From assembly GCF_020103695.1 (NCBI RefSeq), contig NZ_JAHXBF010000014.1:172297-236296 (forward strand): DNA of 64,000 nt, written 5' to 3'. The stretch's first letter is position 1; every line of letters begins with the position of its first letter. Origin of the DNA: Hyalangium versicolor. GTDB taxonomy: Bacteria > Myxococcota > Myxococcia > Myxococcales > Myxococcaceae. This document shows positions 10,465 to 45,246 of this stretch, piece after piece. A model generated the notes under the pieces. The model was not told where the DNA came from. It was given only the letters and a program-made list of their open reading frames with translations, and ran no database searches. The position numbers and the translations under genes are program-made.

Positions 10465-10971
10465 TCACCCCTGCTTCGCGGAGCTCGCGCCCTGTGGCTC
10501 TTCGGTCAGAGCGAGCGCCAGCTCATACACCTCATTCTTGTTGAAGGGCTTGCGGAGCTCCGTCAGCCGGTGCCCCTCGCCGAACTCCCGCCGCATGTCC
10601 TCCAGGGAGTAGTCCGAGAAGGCCGAGCACAAGACGACGGGCACCGTGGGAGAGACCTTCCGCAGGTGCCGCAGCGTCTCGAAACCATTCCACCCCGGGG
10701 GCATGCGGTAGTCCAGGAACACCAGCGCATAGGGCCGCCCCTCGGCCATCGCTTCCCGCACCTTGGCAACGCCATCCCGGCCTTGGAAGACCGTGTCCAC
10801 CTCGAAGATCTGGCTGGAGGTGCTGGAGCTCGGAGGCGTTACACCGAACAGCGCCTCCTCGAGCCGGGCGAGCTCCTCCCAATCCTGGGAGGGCCCCGGA
10901 CAGAGGATGCGCTTGAAGTCTTTGTGGATGTCCTCTGAGTCGTCGATGACCAGGATCCGGCGCTTAGACAT
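10465..10971 (-). CDS. stand-alone response regulator (receiver domain only, with an insertion)
   Basis: RILVIDDSEDI N-terminus, phospho-acceptor context ALVFLDYRMP and conserved K (LRKPF). About 30 aa extra between the acidic pocket and the acceptor Asp. Overlaps the kinase gene by 8 nt. Confidence 0.75.
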   Translation of the reverse strand: MSKRRILVIDDSEDIHKDFKRILCPGPSQDWEELARLEEALFGVTPPSSSTSSQIFEVDTVFQGRDGVAKVREAMAEGRPYALVFLDYRMPPGWNGFETLRHLRKVSPTVPVVLCSAFSDYSLEDMRREFGEGHRLTELRKPFNKNEVYELALALTEEPQGASSAKQG

Positions 10972-13234
10972 TCGGTCGCTCGCTCTGCTTCTCCGGGGTG
11001 ACGGGGAGCTCTAGCGTGAATGTCGCGCCCTTGCCTGGACCCTCGCTGTGCGCGACCAGGGAGCCCCCCAGCTCCTGAGCCGCCAGCGCGCTGGAGTGCA
11101 GGCCGAAGCCATGCCCCTCCTCGCGGGTGGTGAAACCGCGCTGGAAGATGCGCGTCAGCATCTCCGGCTCGATACCGATTCCATTGTCCCGCACCTCGAT
11201 CTGCACGCGCTCGTTGGACAGGGACCGGAGACTCACGGTCAGCCGCCGCTCTGCTTCCGGCAGCTCGTCCAACGCATACTTCGCATTGCTGATCAGATTG
11301 ACCAGAATCATCAGCACCTTGTGCTTCTCGGTCAGCACGGATGGAACGTCCCCCAGGTTCCTCTCCACCTTAACAGAGTGGCGCGTGAGTGCAGCCTGAT
11401 TGATGCGCACCGCATCCTCCACCAGCTCCGACAGCGTGGTGGGCTCCAGCAGGTGCAGCGGCATCCGCGCGAAGTTCTGCTGCAGCTTGACGATGGAGCC
11501 GATGTGCTCGGTGTGTCGACTGACGTCACTGAGCAGCGTCTGGATCTCCTGGCGCTCGGCCAGCATGTGCTTGCCGAGCCGGCGCAGGAAGGGCAGCGCG
11601 TTGCGCCCTCGCGGATCCTGGGTGAGGAAGCTCGCCAGGTCGCCCTGGTGCTGTTCGACCAGGTCCACCGTCCGCTCCACGTTGTCGATCTTCAGCGCGG
11701 CCAGCCGCTCCTGGGCCACCAGGGCGGAGGTGTGGACGCTGTTGAGCACGTTGCCGACGTTGTGCAACACGTTGGTGGCGATCTCGGCCCGGCCCACCTG
11801 CCGCGCCGTCTCCACGAGCTGCCGGTGGACCTCCGTGAGCTCCTGGGTGCGCTCCACCACGCGCTGCTCCAGGCCCTCGTTGGCCTGCAGCAGCTCTTCC
11901 TCTCGCCGCTGGACCTCCTGGGCCATCAACTGGAAGCCCTGGGCCAGCCGCCCCAGCTCGTCATCGCGCGAAGTCTCCAGCGAGACCTTGAAGTCTCCGG
12001 CCGCCACCTGGTCCGTGGCCTGGGTGAAGGCCTCCAGCGGGCGGGTGATCTGTTGCCTCAGCGCCCAGTACATCACCGCGAGTTCCACCAACAGGGACGC
12101 CAGGCCGAACATGAGGACATAGCGCGCCACGTGGAAGGCCGCCGAGGACACCACTCGTTCGGGCAACACCGTGACGAACTCCCACTCGGGGCCGTGCAGC
12201 CGCGCCGCCGCGAGGTACTCGCCATACTCCGGCAGGTGCACCCCGAGTTGCCCGCGCTTCAAGCCCTTCACTGCCTTGACGATGGCCTGCAGGTGCGCGC
12301 GGGCCTCCGCGGTGCCGCCTTCCTCGAAGACATCCTCCGGCTTCCGCGGGTCGTTCAGGATGTTGTACGGCTCCACCCCACTCTTCACCCGGAGCCCCGG
12401 GTGGGCGATGAGCAGACCGTCATCGCGGAAGAGCAGGTTGTAGCCCTCCGGCAGGTGGTCCAGGACGGTCCGGCGCATCAGCTCGTCCAGGAGCACGTCA
12501 TGGGAGACCGTCCCCACGTGACGCCCCTCCAGATCCACGGGCGTGACGACGGTGACCATCCAGGTGCGCGAGGGCACATCCTCGAAGATGCCGGTCCAGG
12601 CGGACTTCCGGCTCGAGTTGTTCTCGGGCAGACCCAAGGTGAAGTACTCGAGGTTCAGGATCGAGAAGCTGGGATCGAGATCCAGGAAGTACGTCGCCCC
12701 CTCCGGCCAGTACCCCACGACGACGCCCTCCGGGAGCATGATGCCGGTGTCCGTAAAGCGGACATGGAAGGCAGGGCCATACAGGGACACCGCCTCGTAC
12801 GCGGCCAGGAGCCGGCGGCGGAAGTCCGCATCGTCCCTCACGCCCCGAGGCACGAAGACGCCCGGCATCTTCGTGCCATCGAAGCCCTCGCGCTTGTTGC
12901 GGATCGTCCCATCCGCCTGGAGCGTGAAGAGGCTCTCGAAGAGCGGGTTGGGATCCTTCTCCCGCCAGGCCAGGATCCGCTCCTGGAAGGCCTTCGCGAC
13001 GAGCGCGTGGTCATCCTGCGCGAGCAGGAAGATGGCCTGCTCCCGCTGACTGCGCTCCGAGACGCCCCACTCCATCCGCGTGAGCGTCTCTGTGCGGATG
13101 GAGCGGAGGATGTGGAGGTAACTGACGAGGGTTGTAAGGGCGATGACCACCGCCACCCGCACGCCCATCTTGATGAGCGTGGATCGAGCCAGGGATGAGC
13201 GTGCGCGAGATGATGGGACTGGCGGGTTCGACAT
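10964..13234 (-). CDS. sensor histidine kinase with periplasmic Cache-like domain, HAMP, HisKA and HATPase
   Basis: TM1, a periplasmic region of about 300 aa, TM2, HAMP, coiled coil, H-box (ATNVLHNVGNVLNS), N-box (LISNAKYAL) and G-boxes (DNGIGI, GHGFGL). Confidence 0.85.
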   Translation of the reverse strand: MSNPPVPSSRARSSLARSTLIKMGVRVAVVIALTTLVSYLHILRSIRTETLTRMEWGVSERSQREQAIFLLAQDDHALVAKAFQERILAWREKDPNPLFESLFTLQADGTIRNKREGFDGTKMPGVFVPRGVRDDADFRRRLLAAYEAVSLYGPAFHVRFTDTGIMLPEGVVVGYWPEGATYFLDLDPSFSILNLEYFTLGLPENNSSRKSAWTGIFEDVPSRTWMVTVVTPVDLEGRHVGTVSHDVLLDELMRRTVLDHLPEGYNLLFRDDGLLIAHPGLRVKSGVEPYNILNDPRKPEDVFEEGGTAEARAHLQAIVKAVKGLKRGQLGVHLPEYGEYLAAARLHGPEWEFVTVLPERVVSSAAFHVARYVLMFGLASLLVELAVMYWALRQQITRPLEAFTQATDQVAAGDFKVSLETSRDDELGRLAQGFQLMAQEVQRREEELLQANEGLEQRVVERTQELTEVHRQLVETARQVGRAEIATNVLHNVGNVLNSVHTSALVAQERLAALKIDNVERTVDLVEQHQGDLASFLTQDPRGRNALPFLRRLGKHMLAERQEIQTLLSDVSRHTEHIGSIVKLQQNFARMPLHLLEPTTLSELVEDAVRINQAALTRHSVKVERNLGDVPSVLTEKHKVLMILVNLISNAKYALDELPEAERRLTVSLRSLSNERVQIEVRDNGIGIEPEMLTRIFQRGFTTREEGHGFGLHSSALAAQELGGSLVAHSEGPGKGATFTLELPVTPEKQSERPNV

Positions 13235-13240
13235 CGTGAG

Positions 13241-38683: not shown

Positions 38684-39172
38684 ATGCCCTATACCCCCAT
38701 CATCGGCACCCTTGGCTATGTGATGTCCCCGGACGGGGCGCGGGTGCTGCTCGTCCACCGCAACGCGCGCCCCAATGACGCCCACCTGGGCAAATACAAC
38801 GGCCTGGGCGGGAAGATGCAGCCCGACGAAGACGTTGTGGCGTGCATGCGCCGAGAGATCCGCGAAGAGGCCTCCATCGAGTGCGAGGAGCTGAGGCTGC
38901 GCGGCACGATCAGCTGGCCCGGCTTCGGCCCCAAGGGGGAGGACTGGCTGGGGTTCGTCTTCCTCATCGACCGCTTCACGGGGACGCCGCCCGAGCGCAA
39001 CGCCGAGGGCGAGCTGTCCTGGGTGCCCGTCAAGGACATCATGTCCCTGCCCCTGTGGGACGGGGATCGGCACTTCCTCCCGCTGGTATTCGACTCGGAT
39101 CCGCGAGCCTTCCACGGGGTCATGCCCTACGCGGGAGGTCGCGCGTTGAGCTGGTCTTTCACCCGGATCTGA
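38684..39172 (+). CDS. NUDIX hydrolase
   Basis: Nudix box GGKMQPDEDVVACMRREIREEASI (Gx5Ex7REUxEExGU). Confidence 0.8.
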   Translation: MPYTPIIGTLGYVMSPDGARVLLVHRNARPNDAHLGKYNGLGGKMQPDEDVVACMRREIREEASIECEELRLRGTISWPGFGPKGEDWLGFVFLIDRFTGTPPERNAEGELSWVPVKDIMSLPLWDGDRHFLPLVFDSDPRAFHGVMPYAGGRALSWSFTRI

Positions 39173-39472
39173 GATTTGCCGGATCGGATCCGGCCCGATC
39201 CGGTACTGTGGGAGTGATTCACCCTACCTGATACGGTAGAGAGGCTGGATCAGGTCCACGTGAGCTGTAGTAGCTTCCCGCCGTCTTCCAGGAGGACTCG
39301 TCCGGTGTTCTTCAGTTCCGGGTGGTTGGATTCGCTGATCGAACGCCTGGGCCTCACCCAGTGGGTGGGACCGCTGCGGGCGTTTCTGCGGCGAGCCCGG
39401 GGCGACGAGTCGCTGGTTGGTCATGCCGCAGTCCGCAGTGAGACTCCGCTGTCCCCTCCGATAGAGCCCACC

Positions 39473-39934
39473 ATGCCCCAGAAGAAGCAAGCCAAGAGCA
39501 AGAGCCCCTCTCGTCCCCAGCGCGCCAAGGCACAGAAGCGCACCGCGAAGCCCGCCGCCCGCAAGGCCACCACCAAGCGCGCCTCCGCGGCCCGCAAGAG
39601 CGGCGCGACGCGGACCGCCACCACGGAAGCCGTGAAGCAGTTGGTGGATGCGCTGCAGAACCACCCGCAGCAGAAGAACCTGGTCACCGCGGGGCAGCAG
39701 AAGGATCAGCTCCTGCGCTCGCTGATCCCGCTGTACCTGGCGCGTGCACTGGGCGTGGAAGTGACGTCCGGGACCACCTCGCGCTTCTGGAGCAAGCTGG
39801 GCGTGTCCTACGCGGCCCCCAACGCCGCCAAGGCGCTGCGCATCCACACCGGCTACGCCTCGGACTCCAAGAAGGGCAAGACGATCACCGCCAAGGGCGT
39901 CCGCTACGTCGAGGACGCCATCGCCCGCGGCTGA
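39473..39934 (+). CDS. basic histone-H1/Hc1-like protein: Lys/Ala-rich N-terminal tail plus a ~100-aa C-terminal domain
   Basis: Start placed at the internal ATG (MPQKKQAKSKSPSRPQRAKAQKRTAKPAARKATTKRASAARK...). The upstream part of the ORF-track entry has no coding character. The C-terminal domain is unassigned. Confidence 0.5.
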   Translation: MPQKKQAKSKSPSRPQRAKAQKRTAKPAARKATTKRASAARKSGATRTATTEAVKQLVDALQNHPQQKNLVTAGQQKDQLLRSLIPLYLARALGVEVTSGTTSRFWSKLGVSYAAPNAAKALRIHTGYASDSKKGKTITAKGVRYVEDAIARG

Positions 39935-40003
39935 GCCGGTGCTGTCCCCGCCCTCCTCTCCATGAGGGCGGGGCTCACCTGAGGTTGAGGCACGAGCCAG
40001 GGC

Positions 40004-41071
40004 TCAGGGCAGGATCCCCTTCCTCTGGAGCCCCTCGTCGATCCGACGGATGCGGATGCCCTCGTTCTTCATGAGGGGCATCTTCCCGGCAACCTCCTGA
40101 GGCGTACCGCCCGCGTGGTGGAGCGCGATGAGCTCTCCCTGGGCGTTGAAGACCGGCGCCCCCGAGGAGCCCGGCTGCGCATCCGTGAGATAGTGGACAA
40201 CGCGCTCGTCGAAGTTCGTCACCGTGCTCCGGATGAACCCGAGCCGCTTCCGCGAGCCGCGCGGGTGCTGGAGGGTGAACACGCTCTCGCCAAGCACCGG
40301 AGGCACCGCGGGAGACAGGATCACGCGTGGCCAGGTGGGCTCCAGGCCCTCGGTGACGCGGATCACCCCCCAATCATCCGCCTCATCCGTGATGATCGAG
40401 CCGCAATCGCACGGGAGGGACTTGGACGGGAGCGCCGCGTCCCTGGCATCCGTCTCGAAGCCGAACTCAGCGATGACCTCCGTGGCCTTTTTCCCCTGGG
40501 GGAAGAGCACGTGGTGGTTGGTCAGCACGAGGTTGTCGCCAATCCGGAAGCCCGTTCCGACACCAGAGACGGAGCCCGCGGTGACGCGCAGCAGGCACAC
40601 CGCCGGAGCCAGCTCCATCATCTTCTTCAGCGTCGCGATGAACGCCGGCACCCGCCCCACCAGCAGTGAGAGATCATCGCGGAAGAGCAGCGCCTCCTGC
40701 TCGGTGGGCGTGTCATTGCCGGAGAGGAAGACCGCGGAGCCGTTGTCCCTGCGAGGCTCCAGGCTCACCGCCACCGGGACATCCTTGAGCAGGGCCTCCA
40801 GGAAGGCATAGGTCGGGTTCTTGCGGTTCTGGTCTCGAACGAAGGCGACGAGGTGCTGCGTGGCGGCCTTCGCCGACGCCAGCTCCAGGATCTTCCTCCA
40901 CAGCTCGAGCACCGGGAGACCGGAGGGGAGTTCCTTCGGCGGAATGCCCGCGGTGGTGGCCACGAAGGTGGCCCGTGGCTCGGTGGGATAGAGAGAGACG
41001 AGCGTCCGGTGCAGTTCCTGGGCCTCGGGGCGCTCCCAGGGAAACGGAGAGGCGTCGATGATCGATGGCAT
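40004..41071 (-). CDS. trypsin-like serine protease with N-terminal EAD1-type effector-associated domain
   Basis: C-terminal S1 protease: TNHHVL (His), DDWGVIRV (Asp), GSSGAPVF (Ser, GDSGGP-like). N-terminal ~90 aa: LHRTLVSLYPTEPRATFVATTAGIPPKELPSGLPVLELWRKILELASAKAATQHLVAFVRDQNRKNPTYAFL. This matches the EAD1 pattern as I recall it, reconstructed from memory not retrieved (l..aL..af...a..l....gip...lp......fW..vv..a...g.l..Ll.......P.N). The EAD1 assignment is inference, about 0.5. Confidence 0.8.
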   Translation of the reverse strand: MPSIIDASPFPWERPEAQELHRTLVSLYPTEPRATFVATTAGIPPKELPSGLPVLELWRKILELASAKAATQHLVAFVRDQNRKNPTYAFLEALLKDVPVAVSLEPRRDNGSAVFLSGNDTPTEQEALLFRDDLSLLVGRVPAFIATLKKMMELAPAVCLLRVTAGSVSGVGTGFRIGDNLVLTNHHVLFPQGKKATEVIAEFGFETDARDAALPSKSLPCDCGSIITDEADDWGVIRVTEGLEPTWPRVILSPAVPPVLGESVFTLQHPRGSRKRLGFIRSTVTNFDERVVHYLTDAQPGSSGAPVFNAQGELIALHHAGGTPQEVAGKMPLMKNEGIRIRRIDEGLQRKGILP

Positions 41072-41110
41072 GGTTCCCCAATCGGGTTCGCGCGCGCATC
41101 CTAATGACTT

Positions 41111-42817
41111 TCAGGACGGGTTGCCTTGAAGAGAAGCAGCCGCCGCGATGCCCGTGGGCAGGGTGATGCGGAAGATGCTGCCGCGGCCCACCTCACTCGT
41201 CACCACCTGGAGGGTACCGCCCATGGCCACGACGATGGTGCGGCACACCGACAGCCCCAGCCCTGTCCCCATGCCCACCGGTTTGGTCGTGAAGAACGGC
41301 TCGAAGATGCGCTCCAGGTTCTCTGGAGGAATCCCGCAGCCCGTGTCGTGCACCTCCACGATGACGGTGTCCAGGATACCCATGTGCACCACCACACGGA
41401 CCTCGTTCTCCTCCACCCGGCCCGGCTCGATGGAATGCGCGGCATTGACGATCAGGTTGAGCATCACCTGGCCCAGCCGAGGCCCATTGCCCTGGACCGG
41501 GGGCACGTCCTGGCAGTCCAACACCAGCCGGGCCCGCTCGCTCAACTCCTGGGTGGCAATGCTCGCGGCGCCGCGGATCACGCTCCCCAGATCCACAGGC
41601 CCCAGCGTGAGCTCGTCCGGCCGTGACAACACCTTGAGCTCCTGCACGATGATGCGGACCCGATCGGCACCCTCGCGCGCATCACCAATGGCTGTCATCA
41701 GCTCTTCCTTCTCCGGCAGACCCGCGGCCTCGGGCCTATCGAGCTCGCGCTGGATGAAGCGCAGGTTGCTGAGGATGTACGAGAGCGGGTTGTTGATCTC
41801 GTGGCCCACGCCCGCCGCGAGCCGCCCCACGGCGGCCAGCCTGTCCGCGAAGAGCAGCTGCGCCTGGGTGTCCTGGAGCTGCCGGAGGCTCTCCTCGAGC
41901 CGCGTATTGGCTGCCTCCAGCTCCGTGGTGCGCGCACGGACCGTCTCCTCCAGGATGGCGTTGTAGCGACGCGCCTCACGCTCGGAAACCTCGGCCTCGG
42001 CCTTCATCAAGCGCTGCTTCTCCTCGAGGGTGCCGTGCAGTTCGACGGCCATGCGATTCATGGCCTGGGCCAGCAGCCCCAGTTCGTCACGGCCCATGGT
42101 GGGCAGGGACACCGCGAAGTCACCGCGGCCCACTCGCTCCGCAACGCTCCTCAGCTGGCGCAACGAGCCCCGCAGGGGCAGGAAGAGGAACAGGGTCAGC
42201 GCCACCATGAGCACGGTGCAGGCCAGCGTGACGATATGGGTCAGGAGCAGAGAGCGCTTCACGTTCCGATCCCAGTGCTGCCGCAGCCACGTCAGCTCCT
42301 CCTGCTCCGCCGCCTCGATGGTGGCCATGTCCCGCCCCACCTCTCGCTCGTAGTCCTGGTAGAGCTCCCACTCGAGCATGGGCGGGATGGGGCGCTTCGC
42401 CGGTTCCGCGCGTACCCGAGCTTCGGTCTTCTCCATCCAGCGCAGCAGCGCCTGGATGACCTCGCTGAACTCCCGGCGCTCATCCGTGCGAGGCTTGTAC
42501 CCGCTGTCGCCGCTGATCCTCTCTTCCTCATCCACGCTCAAGTCGAGCTGCGTCTGCTCCGCGAGGACCTGGTTTTCCCTCTCGTGGAGAAAGGCAACGG
42601 TGTCCTGGCCGTTCTCCTTCATGCGGCTGAGCGTGTTCAGGAAGGGCCAGACGCCCGCCTTCAATCGCGCCACGGCCAGGAGTTGCTCTTGAGAGGCGAC
42701 CACCCGCTCGCGGATCTGGCGCCCCTTCCGTGTACCGAACAGGGAGTTGCCAGCCAGAATGGCAGTGATTCCAATCGCCACCAGTGCCAAAAGCAGGATC
42801 CTGGCGTTCACTGACAT
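41111..42817 (-). CDS. orphan sensor histidine kinase (periplasmic sensor, HAMP, HisKA, HATPase)
   Basis: Start at internal Met MSVNARILLLALVAIG (TM1). Periplasmic ~170 aa, TM2, HAMP, H-box GVGHEINNPLSYI, N/G boxes (NAAHSI, DTGCGI, GTGLGL). No receiver domain; sits 39 nt upstream of the protease gene. Confidence 0.85.
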   Translation of the reverse strand: MSVNARILLLALVAIGITAILAGNSLFGTRKGRQIRERVVASQEQLLAVARLKAGVWPFLNTLSRMKENGQDTVAFLHERENQVLAEQTQLDLSVDEEERISGDSGYKPRTDERREFSEVIQALLRWMEKTEARVRAEPAKRPIPPMLEWELYQDYEREVGRDMATIEAAEQEELTWLRQHWDRNVKRSLLLTHIVTLACTVLMVALTLFLFLPLRGSLRQLRSVAERVGRGDFAVSLPTMGRDELGLLAQAMNRMAVELHGTLEEKQRLMKAEAEVSEREARRYNAILEETVRARTTELEAANTRLEESLRQLQDTQAQLLFADRLAAVGRLAAGVGHEINNPLSYILSNLRFIQRELDRPEAAGLPEKEELMTAIGDAREGADRVRIIVQELKVLSRPDELTLGPVDLGSVIRGAASIATQELSERARLVLDCQDVPPVQGNGPRLGQVMLNLIVNAAHSIEPGRVEENEVRVVVHMGILDTVIVEVHDTGCGIPPENLERIFEPFFTTKPVGMGTGLGLSVCRTIVVAMGGTLQVVTSEVGRGSIFRITLPTGIAAAASLQGNPS

Positions 42818-42955
42818 GGAGTCCCCCTCCCGGAAGTCCCTCGCAGAACCTCGTAGAGGACACTCCGGTACGCGGAGGAGCGCCGCAAGCAGCCCCAGAG
42901 GGCAAGCCACTGCAAGGAAGTGAACGCTGGGATTCCCTTGCAGTGGCCGGGTGCG

Positions 42956-43411
42956 TCACTGGCCCTGGCTGGCCATCCGGCGCTTCATCTCCTCGGGAGA
43001 GATGTCTTCCTTGTGCGTGGCGAGGGTCCACTGGTGGCCGAACGGATCACGCAGGGTGCCAGAGCGATCGCCGTAGAACTGGTCCTTCACCGGGCGCTCC
43101 TCCTTCCCTCCAGCGGCGAGGGCCTGCTTGAAGAGTAGGTCCACATCCTCGGTGTAGATACAGAGACCCACGGGAGAGCCCCCCAGTGTCTCGGGACTGC
43201 GGGCCCCCATCTCGGGGAACTCATCGGCGAGCATGATGCGAGAAGTGCCGATCTGGAACTCCGAGTGCCCCACCGAGCCACCCGGACCTTCCAGGCGGTA
43301 GAGCTCATGCGCATTGAAGGCCTTCTTGTAGAACTCCAGTGCCCGGGCTGCCCCCTTCACGATCAGGTACGGCGTCACGGTGTGGTACCCCTCGGGAATT
43401 GCCTTCGCCAT
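42956..43411 (-). CDS. VOC-family (glyoxalase/bleomycin-resistance fold) protein
   Basis: Start MAKAIPEGYH with AAGGAG upstream. Two beta-alpha-beta-beta-beta modules (YLIVKGAARALEFY..., GHQWTL). Confidence 0.8.
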   Translation of the reverse strand: MAKAIPEGYHTVTPYLIVKGAARALEFYKKAFNAHELYRLEGPGGSVGHSEFQIGTSRIMLADEFPEMGARSPETLGGSPVGLCIYTEDVDLLFKQALAAGGKEERPVKDQFYGDRSGTLRDPFGHQWTLATHKEDISPEEMKRRMASQGQ

Positions 43412-43524
43412 GGCTGCTCTCCTTTGTTGGTGCGTGGAAAGTGGGTGCTCCTGCTTCTCACGAAGCGGCCGCCGAGTAGTCCGGCACCTGAACATCTGTC
43501 AAGTAGTTCAACGACAACTGTGCG

Positions 43525-44445
43525 TCACGTCCTTGCTTCCGTGTCCGCCAGGAGCCAGTCCCGCACCGCGAGGAAGCGCGCGGTGAGCGCCGTGGCCCGG
43601 CGCCACGCCAGCCAGATGGTGCCTCGGGGGCGCCGGAGCGAGCGCCGGCCGGACTCAGGCTCGAGCGCCACGACCCGCCCAGAGCGAACCGCCGGCTCCA
43701 CCAGGTAGTCCGGCAACACCGAGATGCCGCACCCAGCCTCGGCCAGCGCCAGCATCTCGTCGAGGTTGGTGATGTGACACACCACCTGGCTGGGGAGTGG
43801 CTCCTTCGCTCCAAAGGCCGCCCGCCACCACGGCTCGAGCATCGCCAGATCGGAGTCGAAGGCGACGAAGCGGTGGGAGCCGAAGTCCCGCGCGGTCCGA
43901 GGCGTGCCCTGCCGACGCAGGTATGCGGGAGCGGCCACGGCCACGAATCCCTCCTGCGCGATCGGCCGGACCTCCAGCCCCGAGGCCTCGGGCAGCGTGC
44001 CCATGATGGCCAGATCCACCTCGCCTCCCAACAGCCTTCGGGTGAGCAGGCTCGACACCTCGAAGCGCACGCTCAGGCGCAGGTCCGGATGTTGCTCCAG
44101 CAATCCGGGCAGCCGCGGACGCAGCCAGAAGCGGCAGAAGGGCCACGGACCTCCCAGGGTCACCTCCCCTCGCACCGAGCGCTGGGCCTCCGCGGCCTCT
44201 TCGATCGCCGTGTCCAGAGCTGGCAGGTGCTCGCCCAACCGCTCCACCAGGGCCGCGCCGATGGGCGTCAGCCGGGCCCGGCGGCCCACCCGCTCGAACA
44301 GCGCCACGCCCAGACGCGCCTCCAATGCCTTGAGTTGCTGCCCCACTGCCGAGGCAGTGATGCCGAGCCGAGCCGCCGCTCCCGCATAGGTCCCGGCCCG
44401 ACTCACTTCCCACAGCGTCCACAGCGCTTCATGATTGCCAAGCAC
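43525..44445 (-). CDS. LysR-family transcriptional regulator
   Basis: N-terminal wHTH (GTYAGAAARLGITASAVGQQLKALEARLGVALFER) plus a LysR substrate-binding domain. Divergent to the DJ-1 gene. Confidence 0.85.
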   Translation of the reverse strand: MLGNHEALWTLWEVSRAGTYAGAAARLGITASAVGQQLKALEARLGVALFERVGRRARLTPIGAALVERLGEHLPALDTAIEEAAEAQRSVRGEVTLGGPWPFCRFWLRPRLPGLLEQHPDLRLSVRFEVSSLLTRRLLGGEVDLAIMGTLPEASGLEVRPIAQEGFVAVAAPAYLRRQGTPRTARDFGSHRFVAFDSDLAMLEPWWRAAFGAKEPLPSQVVCHITNLDEMLALAEAGCGISVLPDYLVEPAVRSGRVVALEPESGRRSLRRPRGTIWLAWRRATALTARFLAVRDWLLADTEART

Positions 44446-44553
44446 CGCTACATATTATGTGAAGACACCCTCGGTTTTCTTGCGAAGCCCCGAGCGGTAC
44501 CTCTCTGCGCATCGCCCCCCATGCAGGGAGGCACGATGCAAGGAGCAACCACG

Positions 44554-45246
44554 ATGAAGGCACTGACCGCGATCAAGATCCTGTTGATCGTCACCAGTCA
44601 CGAGCAGATGGGGACCACCGGCGAGCAGACCGGCTTCTGGCTGGAGGAGCTGGCGGCGCCCTACCGCGAGTTCACGGCGGAGGGCGCGCAGGTCGACATC
44701 GCCTCTCCCAAGGGCGGCAAGGCCCCCGCCGATCCGCGCAGCGTGAAGGACGCCTCCGAGGAGACTCGCGCCTTCCTGTCCGATCCCCAGGCCAGGTCCA
44801 AGCTGGAGCACACGCTCGTATTGGGAGAGGTGAAGGACACGTACGATGCCTACTTCGTCGTGGGTGGCCACGGAGTAATGTGGGATCTGGCGACCCATGC
44901 GCCCCTCCACAAGCTGCTCGCGAGCGCGTACGCCCGCGGGGCGGTGGTCGCAGCGGTGTGCCACGGGCCGGCGGCACTGGTCGGAGTGAAGGGCGCGGAC
45001 GGCAAGCCGCTCGTTGCCGGCAAGCGCGTGGCGGCCTTCTCCGACGAGGAGGAGCGCGCGGCGAAGCTCGACAAGGTGGTGCCCTTCCCCCTGGAGACGC
45101 GCCTGCGCGAGCTCGGGGCCCGCTACGAGCGGGGGCCCATGTGGGGCAGCTTCGCCGTGCGCGACGGCCAGCTGATCACCGGCCAGAACCCCGCTTCCTC
45201 GGTGGCTGCCGCGAAAGAGGTCATCGGCGCCCTGCGGAAGAAGTAG
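44554..45246 (+). CDS. DJ-1/PfpI-family (type 1 glutamine amidotransferase-like) protein
   Basis: AAGGAG 9 nt upstream of the ATG. Nucleophile-elbow Cys in AAVCHGPAAL. KILLIVTSHE N-terminus. Confidence 0.8.
   Translation: MKALTAIKILLIVTSHEQMGTTGEQTGFWLEELAAPYREFTAEGAQVDIASPKGGKAPADPRSVKDASEETRAFLSDPQARSKLEHTLVLGEVKDTYDAYFVVGGHGVMWDLATHAPLHKLLASAYARGAVVAAVCHGPAALVGVKGADGKPLVAGKRVAAFSDEEERAAKLDKVVPFPLETRLRELGARYERGPMWGSFAVRDGQLITGQNPASSVAAAKEVIGALRKK

What the first reader, a model, noticed from the sequence alone, without database searches (positions are those of the whole stretch)
40004..42817. EAD1-type effector-associated domain fused to a trypsin-like protease, downstream of an orphan histidine kinase
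The N-terminal ~90 aa of the protease match the pattern of the EAD1 adaptor domain. In the Aravind-lab descriptions of NTP-dependent conflict systems, enriched in multicellular bacteria such as myxobacteria, EAD1 links effectors (trypsin, TIR and others) to STAND/NACHT NTPases. Here the cognate NTPase is not adjacent. An orphan HAMP-histidine kinase sits 39 nt upstream on the same strand instead, which is not a described pairing. The effector is either used in trans by a distant EAD-NTPase, or this is a previously unreported kinase-coupled arrangement.
Basis: partly seen in the sequence, partly recalled or inferred. Interest (0 to 1): 0.6.

Follow-up and report, generated by a model that had tools for sequence, protein, structure and literature searches.

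The report
Stray EAD1-trypsin effector beside unrelated kinase
This is an intact adaptor-plus-protease gene of a bacterial conflict (cell-suicide or immunity type) system that, in Hyalangium versicolor, has been separated from its usual two NTPase partner genes; it landed next to a sensor kinase by a species-specific rearrangement, so the kinase pairing looks accidental rather than a new signalling design.

Summary
ORF 40004-41071(-) encodes a 355-aa protein. It has a Pfam EAD1 domain (aa 12-89, 37.3 bits against a cut-off of 24.2) and a Trypsin_2 domain with an intact H187/D233/S303 triad. A HAMP-HisKA-HATPase_c kinase (41111-42817, -) ends 39 nt upstream.

The kinase-coupling idea is not supported:
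- The protein belongs to a widespread, tightly conserved family. Its usual place is third in a same-strand cassette: A (EAD1 + P-loop NTPase, ~360 aa), B (trypsin + STAND NTPase, ~1200 aa), C (EAD1-trypsin).
- All four closest homologues (63-66% identical) have B directly upstream.
- Of 43 usable genome loci, 27 are A-B-C, 14 carry another EAD1 gene or a B-like NTPase within 10 kb, and 2 are solo. None of 89 loci has a kinase directly upstream.
- Kinase orthologues in five other Hyalangium genomes lack the protease.
- H. gracile is syntenic on both sides, and the synteny break holds only the protease gene.
- The kinase has no EAD1 and the protease has no receiver domain.

It is a solo EAD1 effector, a situation Kaur et al. 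(2020) already describe. It probably works in trans with an EAD1-bearing core protein encoded elsewhere, but I could not test that. This is a new member of a known kind, of low interest.

The parts
40004..41071 (-). Gene for the 355-aa EAD1-trypsin protein (family 'C'). It is cytoplasmic by sequence, with no N-terminal hydrophobic signal.
   Evidence: ORF; Pfam; 100% identical to the NCBI H. versicolor protein P0001. It keeps 53 of the 55 columns that are invariant in the 25 other family members, at 62% overall identity to their consensus.
40805..41038 (-). EAD1 adaptor domain (aa 12-89); helices at aa 15-27, 31-40, 54-67, 71-81 and 88-95.
   Evidence: PF19955, 37.3 bits against a cut-off of 24.2; DSSP on the AlphaFold2 model. 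The nearly invariant R72 is Q here.
40592..40714 (-). Conserved linker (aa 120-160) between EAD1 and the protease. It holds the invariant E126, L129, D132, D133, L134 and G139, and helix 138-157.
   Evidence: Alignment A1; model. Its function is unknown.
40121..40558 (-). Trypsin_2 serine-protease domain (aa 172-317). Catalytic codons: H187 (40511-40513), D233 (40373-40375), S303 (40163-40165).
   Evidence: Pfam E 3e-21; invariant triad; Foldseek hits to FAM111A SPD, DegS and HtrA1.
41072..41110 (-). 39-nt spacer between the kinase stop and the protease start. GGGGA lies 4 nt before the ATG. There is no terminator-like hairpin, so co-transcription is plausible.
   Evidence: Sequence read; consensus scan.
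41111..42817 (-). Orphan membrane sensor histidine kinase (two hydrophobic segments, HAMP, HisKA, HATPase_c). It is vertically inherited in Hyalangium and Archangium. It is a neighbour, not a demonstrated partner.
   Evidence: Pfam. Orthologues at 71% (H. gracile), 66%, 63%, 59%, 57% and about 52% (Archangium). Their neighbourhoods lack the protease.
39946..39973 (.). Perfect 10-bp GC hairpin (CCCCGCCCTC-N8-GAGGGCGGGG) between the convergent protease gene and the 224-aa gene. It is a likely terminator, without a T-run.
   Evidence: the repeat finder I12; sequence.
39940..41150 (.). H. versicolor-specific segment with no DNA counterpart in the syntenic H. gracile locus. It contains only the protease gene, its flanks and the last ~40 nt of the kinase.
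   Evidence: blastn of the window against L090: homology ends at 39939 and resumes, inverted, at 41151.

Best explanation
The gene encodes a solo effector of an NTP-dependent conflict system. An N-terminal EAD1 adaptor is joined through a conserved linker to a catalytically intact, cytoplasmic trypsin-like protease.

Shown:
- It belongs to a highly conserved ~355-aa family. That family's normal place is third in a cassette: A (EAD1 + P-loop NTPase), B (trypsin + STAND NTPase with a C-terminal sensor-like region), C (EAD1-trypsin).
- In H. versicolor only C is present. It sits alone in a ~1.2-kb species-specific segment at a rearrangement breakpoint, downstream of a vertically inherited orphan histidine kinase.
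- The kinase adjacency is not conserved on either side.

Inferred:
- The kinase is a bystander. At most it supplies read-through transcription across the 39-nt spacer.
- If the protease is used, its EAD1 docks by homotypic interaction onto an EAD1-bearing core protein encoded elsewhere in the genome. NTP-dependent oligomerisation of that core, after sensing an invader or stress, then concentrates and activates the protease. The protease cleaves cellular targets, giving growth arrest or cell death.
- This is the published 'EAD principle', with experimentally characterised parallels in CARD-caspase recruitment and Avs2-trypsin activation.
For: - Domains and intact triad.
- Family and cassette: L009 and L007 carry A-B-C.
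- A's N-terminus matches the C-family EAD1 HMM (E down to 1.7e-14) and the window protein itself by tblastn (E 5e-7).
- A has a Walker A motif (GxxxSGK[ST]) and a Walker B motif (DDLG). B has GIGG[IV]GKS.
- The four closest homologues (63-66% identical) all have B directly upstream.
- Of 43 usable genome loci, 27 are A-B-C, 5 have an A/B-like pair or a B-like NTPase downstream, 9 have another EAD1 gene within 10 kb, and 2 are solo. No locus among 89 has a kinase directly upstream.
- Kinase orthologues lack the protease.
- The synteny break with H. gracile contains only the protease.
- The window has no other EAD1 and no homologue of A or B.
- There is no sign of decay: 53 of 55 invariant and 23 of 26 nearly invariant columns are kept.
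- Literature: dispersed EAD copies correlate with a cognate EAD on a core component in the same genome (PMC7159879 section 30). Avs2 oligomerisation activates a fused trypsin domain (bioRxiv 10.64898/2026.08.25.746987).
Against: - No trans partner was identified. A search with gene B returned 50 relatives and none from Hyalangium, although H. versicolor proteins are in that database.
- The rest of the genome could not be searched for gene A or for other EAD1 proteins.
- The window protein has lost the nearly invariant EAD1 residue R72 (now Q) and two family-invariant residues, N282S and T298A. This could mean relaxed constraint after loss of the partners.
- Same-strand placement 39 nt after the kinase with no terminator means shared transcription cannot be excluded.
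- No experiment exists for any EAD1 protein.
Confidence: 0.6

Rival explanations
1. Stranded remnant. The gene is the only surviving piece of an A-B-C cassette, or a single-gene transfer from one. It has no partner in this genome and no current function, and it is either tolerated because the protease stays inactive without recruitment or is on its way to decay.
For: - A and B are absent from the window.
- No Hyalangium homologue appeared in the gene B search.
- Solo loci are rare in the family (2 of 43), and one of them (L052) is frameshifted.
- Substitutions R72Q in EAD1, N282S and T298A fall at otherwise conserved positions.
Against: - The reading frame is intact and full-length, and 53 of 55 invariant columns and the whole catalytic triad are kept despite 34-38% divergence from the nearest relatives.
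- Its GC3 (0.86) matches that of neighbouring genes.
- Kaur et al. report that dispersed EAD genes usually coexist with a core EAD protein.
Confidence: 0.25
2. Kinase-coupled module. The histidine kinase and the EAD1-protease form a functional operon in which the kinase senses a signal and controls the protease, by phosphorylation, binding or co-expression.
For: - The genes share a strand, with a 39-nt gap, no terminator-like site and an RBS-like GGGGA.
- The kinase is an orphan, with no response regulator adjacent.
Against: - The adjacency is unique to this genome. No homologue locus among 89 has a kinase directly upstream.
- None of five Hyalangium kinase-orthologue loci has a protease.
- The protease has no receiver or other phospho-acceptor domain and the kinase has no EAD1.
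- The pair was created by an insertion and rearrangement relative to H. gracile.
- From my own knowledge: orphan kinases are common in myxobacteria.
Confidence: 0.05
3. Autonomous protease. The protein acts alone, with EAD1 mediating self-association or binding to a non-EAD target. It would have been co-opted for housekeeping or regulatory proteolysis, independent of any NTPase.
For: - The model gives a confident, compact two-domain arrangement (pTM 0.87).
- The protease domain resembles regulated intracellular or periplasmic proteases such as DegS, HtrA and FAM111A.
- The gene sits in a housekeeping neighbourhood.
Against: - 41 of 43 family loci keep an EAD1 or NTPase partner within 10 kb, which argues that the family depends on partners.
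- There is no PDZ or other substrate-sensing domain.
- The gene is absent from the sister species H. gracile at the syntenic site, so it is not a conserved housekeeping function.
Confidence: 0.1

Closest known systems
EAD1-linked trypsin effectors of NTP-dependent conflict systems (Kaur, Burroughs, Iyer, Aravind 2020, eLife 9:e52696; 2021, eLife 10:e70394)
   Same: [quoted passage not shown]
- Family members are encoded next to EAD1-bearing NTPase components.
- Copies 'elsewhere in the genome' are explicitly described.
[quoted passage not shown]
   Different: - Here no EAD1 partner or NTPase lies within at least 23 kb on one side and 40 kb on the other.
- The published core systems are MoxR-vWA ternary, GAP1 GTPase, NucA-trypsin, EACC1 and TRADD-N. 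I did not find this family's usual cassette (EAD1-P-loop NTPase + trypsin-STAND) described as such in the text I read. A 'trypsin + Death-like + STAND' protein is mentioned for the NucA systems.
Avs2-trypsin and other protease-fused antiviral STAND NTPases
   Same: A trypsin-like protease is used as the effector of a STAND NTPase and is activated by NTPase oligomerisation. Gene B of the family's cassette has the same trypsin-N-terminal STAND layout.
   Different: - The window protein has no NTPase domain and would have to be recruited through EAD1 instead of being fused.
- PADLOC gives only a marginal Avs1b hit on the trypsin region (E 0.088).
- Genes A and B give only two marginal, unrelated PADLOC hits, both on gene A (mad8, E 0.00095; typeIV_DinG, E 0.0084).
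CARD-caspase recruitment to the apoptosome or inflammasome (animal Death-fold adaptors)
   Same: The logic matches: a small helical homotypic adaptor on both an NTPase hub and a protease zymogen, with proximity-induced activation. Kaur et al. draw this analogy.
   Different: - The protease superfamily differs (serine trypsin fold, not caspase).
- The relationship of EAD1 to Death domains was not tested here.
- There is no experimental evidence for EAD1-EAD1 binding.
HtrA/DegS and FAM111A-type regulated serine proteases
   Same: These are the closest solved folds for the protease domain (Foldseek E 4e-12 to 1e-9).
   Different: - Sequence identity is only 14-22%.
- The window protein has no PDZ domain and no signal peptide or membrane anchor, and it carries EAD1 instead.

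Membership tests
EAD1 domain (Pfam PF19955) | Significant match to the family model, above the curated threshold | tested here: met
   37.3 bits against a gathering score of 24.2, E 3.9e-9, aa 12-89 covering model positions 3-83 of 90.
EAD1 domain (Pfam PF19955) | Small, non-enzymatic, all-alpha domain at a protein terminus | tested here: met
   The AlphaFold2 model shows five helices at aa 15-95, at the N-terminus, with block pLDDT of 87-97.
EAD-coupled effector (the 'EAD principle' of Kaur et al. 2020) | EAD fused to an enzymatic effector domain | tested here: met
   Trypsin_2, E 3e-21, with invariant H187/D233/S303.
EAD-coupled effector (the 'EAD principle' of Kaur et al. 2020) | A second copy of the same EAD on a core (NTPase) component, in an adjacent gene | tested here: not met
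   The EAD1 HMM finds only the protease in a six-frame search of the window. tblastn with genes A and B finds nothing else. The large ORFs are housekeeping genes.
EAD-coupled effector (the 'EAD principle' of Kaur et al. 2020) | A cognate EAD on a core component somewhere in the same genome | not testable with these tools
   The H. versicolor genome is not in genome contigs. The gene B search listed no Hyalangium protein, but gene A and other EAD1 architectures could not be searched.
A-B-C cassette (EAD1-P-loop NTPase / trypsin-STAND / EAD1-trypsin), member C | Full-length homology to the ~355-aa C family | tested here: met
   47-66% identity over 96-100% of the length to 119 listed proteins. 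It keeps 53 of 55 family-invariant columns.
A-B-C cassette (EAD1-P-loop NTPase / trypsin-STAND / EAD1-trypsin), member C | Located directly downstream of genes A and B on the same strand | tested here: not met
   The upstream gene is a HAMP histidine kinase. By contrast, 27 of 43 genome loci and the four closest homologues have B, or A and B, upstream.
Two-component or kinase-controlled effector module | Conserved adjacency of kinase and effector across genomes | tested here: not met
   No protease-homologue locus among 89 has a kinase directly upstream. None of five kinase-orthologue loci has a protease.
Two-component or kinase-controlled effector module | A receiver or phospho-acceptor domain on the partner, or a shared adaptor domain | tested here: not met
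   The protease has only EAD1 and trypsin-family Pfam hits and no Response_reg. The kinase has only HAMP, HisKA and HATPase_c above threshold (plus one sub-threshold coiled-coil hit). The kinase has no EAD1.
Known anti-phage defence systems (PADLOC v2.0.0) | Significant match to a defence-system protein model beyond a generic domain | tested here: not met
   The only hits are on the trypsin domain: RT-Protease_XI E 1.8e-7, PDC-M35A E 0.0025, Avs1b E 0.088. The kinase has none.
HtrA/DegP family | Protease domain followed by one or more PDZ domains; periplasmic or membrane-anchored | tested here: not met
   No PDZ hit. The N-terminus is a soluble helical EAD1 with no hydrophobic signal (sequence; model).

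The most novel reading that the evidence does not exclude
The insertion placed an EAD1-protease under the transcriptional control of an orphan sensor kinase. H. versicolor would then have a new wiring in which a two-component-type membrane sensor, rather than a STAND NTPase, decides when a conflict-system protease is made or deployed. This would be a rare snapshot of an immune effector being captured by a signalling pathway.
Probability: 0.05. Interest if true: 0.6.

Novelty: new member of a known kind. Interest (0 to 1): 0.22.

Why it matters
On its own, little. It is one more dispersed EAD1-effector gene in a myxobacterium, already annotated with both Pfam domains, and the striking kinase adjacency is a lineage-specific accident.

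Two things are modestly useful:
- It is a clean natural example of an EAD1 effector separated from its cassette. That makes H. versicolor a possible test case for whether EAD-tagged effectors really work in trans.
- Tracing it exposed the family's normal home: a three-gene cassette (EAD1-P-loop NTPase, trypsin-STAND NTPase, EAD1-trypsin). This cassette is conserved in at least six phyla and has only marginal matches in PADLOC. It is a better target for experiments than this locus.

Tried and rejected
- Genome-contig scan with the single protein found no relative, so the H. versicolor genome is not in that collection. The partner search genome-wide was therefore impossible. The second scan used the family alignment instead.
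- Comparing the truncated upstream ORF of L001 with the window kinase gave no similarity (E 0.86). That ORF turned out to be the C-terminal half of gene B (68% to L009 B).
- tblastn of genes A and B against the whole window, looking for pseudogene remnants, hit only the protease's own EAD1 and trypsin regions.
- A search for flanking direct or inverted repeats, or mobile-element scars, around 39700-41400 gave only short chance-level matches plus the terminator-like hairpin.
- A sigma-70 promoter scan found none in 39000-44600, which is uninformative for a myxobacterium.
- PADLOC on the protease, the kinase and genes A and B gave no meaningful system assignment.
- The supplement of Kaur et al. 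2020 held as text has no 'Hyalangium' or 'EAD1' entries.
- The 2026 Nature Avs paper mentions EADs only in a figure legend.
- I did not model the EAD1 domain alone or test a Death-fold relationship, because the Pfam match and the helical model were judged sufficient.
- I considered and rejected a secreted protease (no signal sequence) and an HtrA-type protease (no PDZ).
Full report
**1. What is in the sequence**

The window is from Hyalangium versicolor: both proteins are 100% identical to NCBI entries of that species.

ORF 40004-41071(-) encodes 355 aa.
- Pfam gives EAD1 (PF19955) at aa 12-89 with 37.3 bits, above the curated cut-off of 24.2 (E 3.9e-9).
- Pfam also gives Trypsin_2 at aa 172-317 (E 3e-21).
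- A 26-sequence family alignment shows the triad H187/D233/S303 as invariant and present here.
- An AlphaFold2 model built on that alignment is confident (pLDDT 88, pTM 0.87). It shows five helices at aa 15-95, a conserved linker with helix 138-157, then a trypsin fold.
- The nearest solved folds are the FAM111A protease domain, DegS and HtrA1.
- There is no signal peptide and no PDZ domain.

ORF 41111-42817(-) encodes a 568-aa HAMP-HisKA-HATPase_c kinase with two hydrophobic segments.
- The gap to the protease start is 39 nt. It has an RBS-like GGGGA and no terminator-like hairpin.
- A perfect 10-bp GC hairpin follows the protease stop.

**2. The neighbourhood**

- Nothing else in the 64 kb carries an EAD1. 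A six-frame hmmsearch with a family EAD1 HMM returns only the protease.
- There is no STAND NTPase. The large ORFs are Hsp70, UvrD-type and RecG helicases, an aromatic amino-acid lyase, M16 and M28 peptidases, a FUSC transporter, a second HAMP kinase and a 1687-aa TPR protein.
- The immediate neighbours are glyoxalase, LysR, DJ-1/PfpI, GFO/IDH/MocA oxidoreductase, NUDIX, CBS and a calcineurin-like phosphoesterase.
- No receiver domain was found by tblastn. The kinase is therefore an orphan in the usual sense.
- This is core chromosome, not a defence island.

**3. The protease's family and its normal home**

The protein has hundreds of full-length relatives of about 355 aa, at 47-66% identity, in many phyla.

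The closest homologues with enough flanking DNA show a same-strand three-gene cassette.
- In L009 (66% identical) and L007 (52%), the protease gene is the last of the three.
- Gene A is about 360 aa. Its N-terminal ~90 aa match the C-family EAD1 HMM (E down to 1.7e-14) and the window protein itself by tblastn (E 5e-7).
- The rest of gene A is a P-loop NTPase with a Walker A motif (GxxxSGK[ST]) and a DDLG Walker B motif.
- Gene B is about 1200 aa. It has an N-terminal Trypsin_2 domain, a STAND-type NTPase (GIGG[IV]GKS; AAA_16 and NPHP3_N hits) and a long C-terminal region. It has no EAD1.
- The other close homologues (63-66%) sit on short contigs, and each is preceded by the C-terminal end of gene B.

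A scan of one genome per species with the family alignment gave 80 loci. I tabulated them with HMMs for EAD1, the A-type NTPase, the B-type NTPase and the kinase core. Among the 43 usable loci with at least 40% identity:

| Arrangement | Loci |
|---|---|
| A-B-C | 27 |
| A/B-like pair or B-like NTPase downstream of C | 5 |
| Another EAD1 gene within 10 kb | 9 |
| Solo (L035; L052, which is frameshifted) | 2 |

No locus among 89 (L001-L089) has a histidine kinase directly upstream. The three kinase hits lie 2-5 kb downstream of C (L020 on the opposite strand).

**4. The kinase's family**

The kinase has clear vertical orthologues in H. gracile (71%), two Hyalangium MAGs (66%, 63%), H. minutum (59%), H. 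rubrum (57%) and Archangium (about 52%).
- In all five neighbourhoods examined, the gene next to the kinase is something else: a beta-lactamase, LysR, a thioredoxin-domain protein, an alpha/beta-hydrolase or an HD-GerE protein. No protease is present.
- The H. gracile locus is syntenic with the window at the DNA level on both sides (83-91% identity).
- That homology stops at window position 39939 and resumes, inverted, at 41151 inside the kinase gene.
- The kinase also lies on the other side of the glyoxalase gene relative to H. gracile.
- The H. versicolor-specific segment therefore holds just the protease gene, and it sits at a rearrangement breakpoint.
- No transposon scars or flanking repeats were found.

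**5. Interpretation**

The kinase-protease pair is unique to this genome and was created by insertion and rearrangement.
- It lacks any shared adaptor or phospho-acceptor domain, so a kinase-coupled system is not supported.
- Co-transcription remains possible but would be a by-product of the insertion.

The protease is best read as a solo member of the C family, detached from A and B.
- It shows no decay. It keeps 53 of the 55 columns that are invariant in the other 25 family members, and 23 of 26 nearly invariant ones, at 62% identity to their consensus.
- The exceptions are R72Q in EAD1, V264, T266, N282S and T298A.

The published model for EADs is homotypic bridging of effectors to NTPase cores.
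- It is analogous to Death-fold adaptors and explicitly allows copies encoded elsewhere in the genome. Such copies correlate with a cognate EAD on a core protein (PMC7159879 section 30; PMC8195603).
- Activation of a trypsin domain by STAND oligomerisation has been shown for Avs2-trypsin.
- I therefore favour trans recruitment, with proximity-induced activation, as the mechanism. This step is inferred.

The main rival is a partnerless remnant.
- A search with gene B found 50 relatives, none from Hyalangium.
- The R72Q change may hint at relaxed constraint on the adaptor.
- I could not search the rest of the genome.

**6. Comparison with known systems, and novelty**

- The protein meets the sequence, fold and architecture criteria for an EAD1-linked effector. 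It fails the adjacent-partner criterion, and the same-genome-partner criterion is untested.
- It is not an Avs protein, an HtrA protease or a PADLOC-listed system.
- It is a new member of a known kind, and its only unusual feature is its solo placement.
- The A-B-C cassette is more interesting than this locus. It is widespread: Actinomycetota, Acidobacteriota, Bacteroidota, Chloroflexota, Pseudomonadota, Myxococcota and Verrucomicrobiota.
- The cassette has only two marginal, unrelated PADLOC hits, both on gene A. I did not find it described as such in the Aravind-lab text I read, although a trypsin-Death-like-STAND protein is mentioned there.

**7. Verdict**

The kinase coupling is rejected as a conserved or designed arrangement. 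Interest is low (0.22).

Noticed in passing
L009:307-6142; L007:3306-9068; also L011, L012, L015-L020, L024-L026, L029, L031, L032, L034, L036, L037, L040, L042, L043, L045, L048, L049, L051, L053 (about 5.2-11.1 kb in each locus): A conserved same-strand three-gene cassette: EAD1 + P-loop NTPase (~360 aa), N-terminal trypsin + STAND NTPase (~1200 aa), and EAD1-trypsin (~355 aa). It occurs in at least six phyla. Its only PADLOC hits are two marginal, unrelated ones on gene A. It looks like an uncharacterised conflict or defence system with two proteases and two NTPases.
   Followed up: partly
window 41151-45246 compared with L090:7317-13029: Relative to H. gracile, the kinase gene is inverted and lies on the other side of the glyoxalase gene. 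A LysR + DJ-1/PfpI pair replaces two beta-lactamase-family genes. The region between the conserved NUDIX and GFO/IDH/MocA genes is a local rearrangement hotspot.
   Followed up: partly
window 40670-40696 (aa 126-134): The linker between EAD1 and the protease carries a family-invariant motif (E126, L129, D132, D133, L134, then G139). It is as conserved as the catalytic site. It could be a cleavage or docking site, for example for the trypsin domain of gene B. Its function is unknown.
   Followed up: no
window 40856-40858 (R72Q), 40226-40228 (N282S), 40178-40180 (T298A): The window protein differs from its family at one nearly invariant EAD1 residue and at two residues that are invariant in all 25 other members. 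This may be a sign of relaxed constraint after separation from the partner genes.
   Followed up: no
L004:4380-10490: A 56%-identical homologue sits between two further Trypsin_2 genes and next to a divergently transcribed 823-aa NB-ARC/TPR STAND protein. The ORF of that STAND protein also scores with the EAD1 HMM (E 2e-5). This is an example of the classical EAD1-STAND partner arrangement.
   Followed up: partly
L005:5772-10125: Another homologue (54%) lies 2-5 kb from a MoxR (AAA_3/bpMoxR) - DUF58/vWA - DUF4129 gene set on the opposite strand. This is reminiscent of the MoxR-vWA ternary systems with which EAD1-trypsin effectors were first described.
   Followed up: no
L052:10001-11031; L049:10001-11081; L056:10001-11016; L018:5227-9959: Several family loci have the C, A or B gene split between reading frames in tblastn. 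These are pseudogenes or assembly errors. L052 is also one of only two solo loci.
   Followed up: no
window 39260-39934 (+): A 224-aa Lys/Ala/Thr-rich protein with no Pfam match, convergent with the protease gene. It is conserved after the NUDIX gene in H. gracile (209 aa, L090:6600-7229).
   Followed up: no
window 10964-13240 (-): A second membrane sensor kinase in the window, with a dCache-like region, HAMP and HATPase_c. It also has no receiver gene detected nearby.
   Followed up: no
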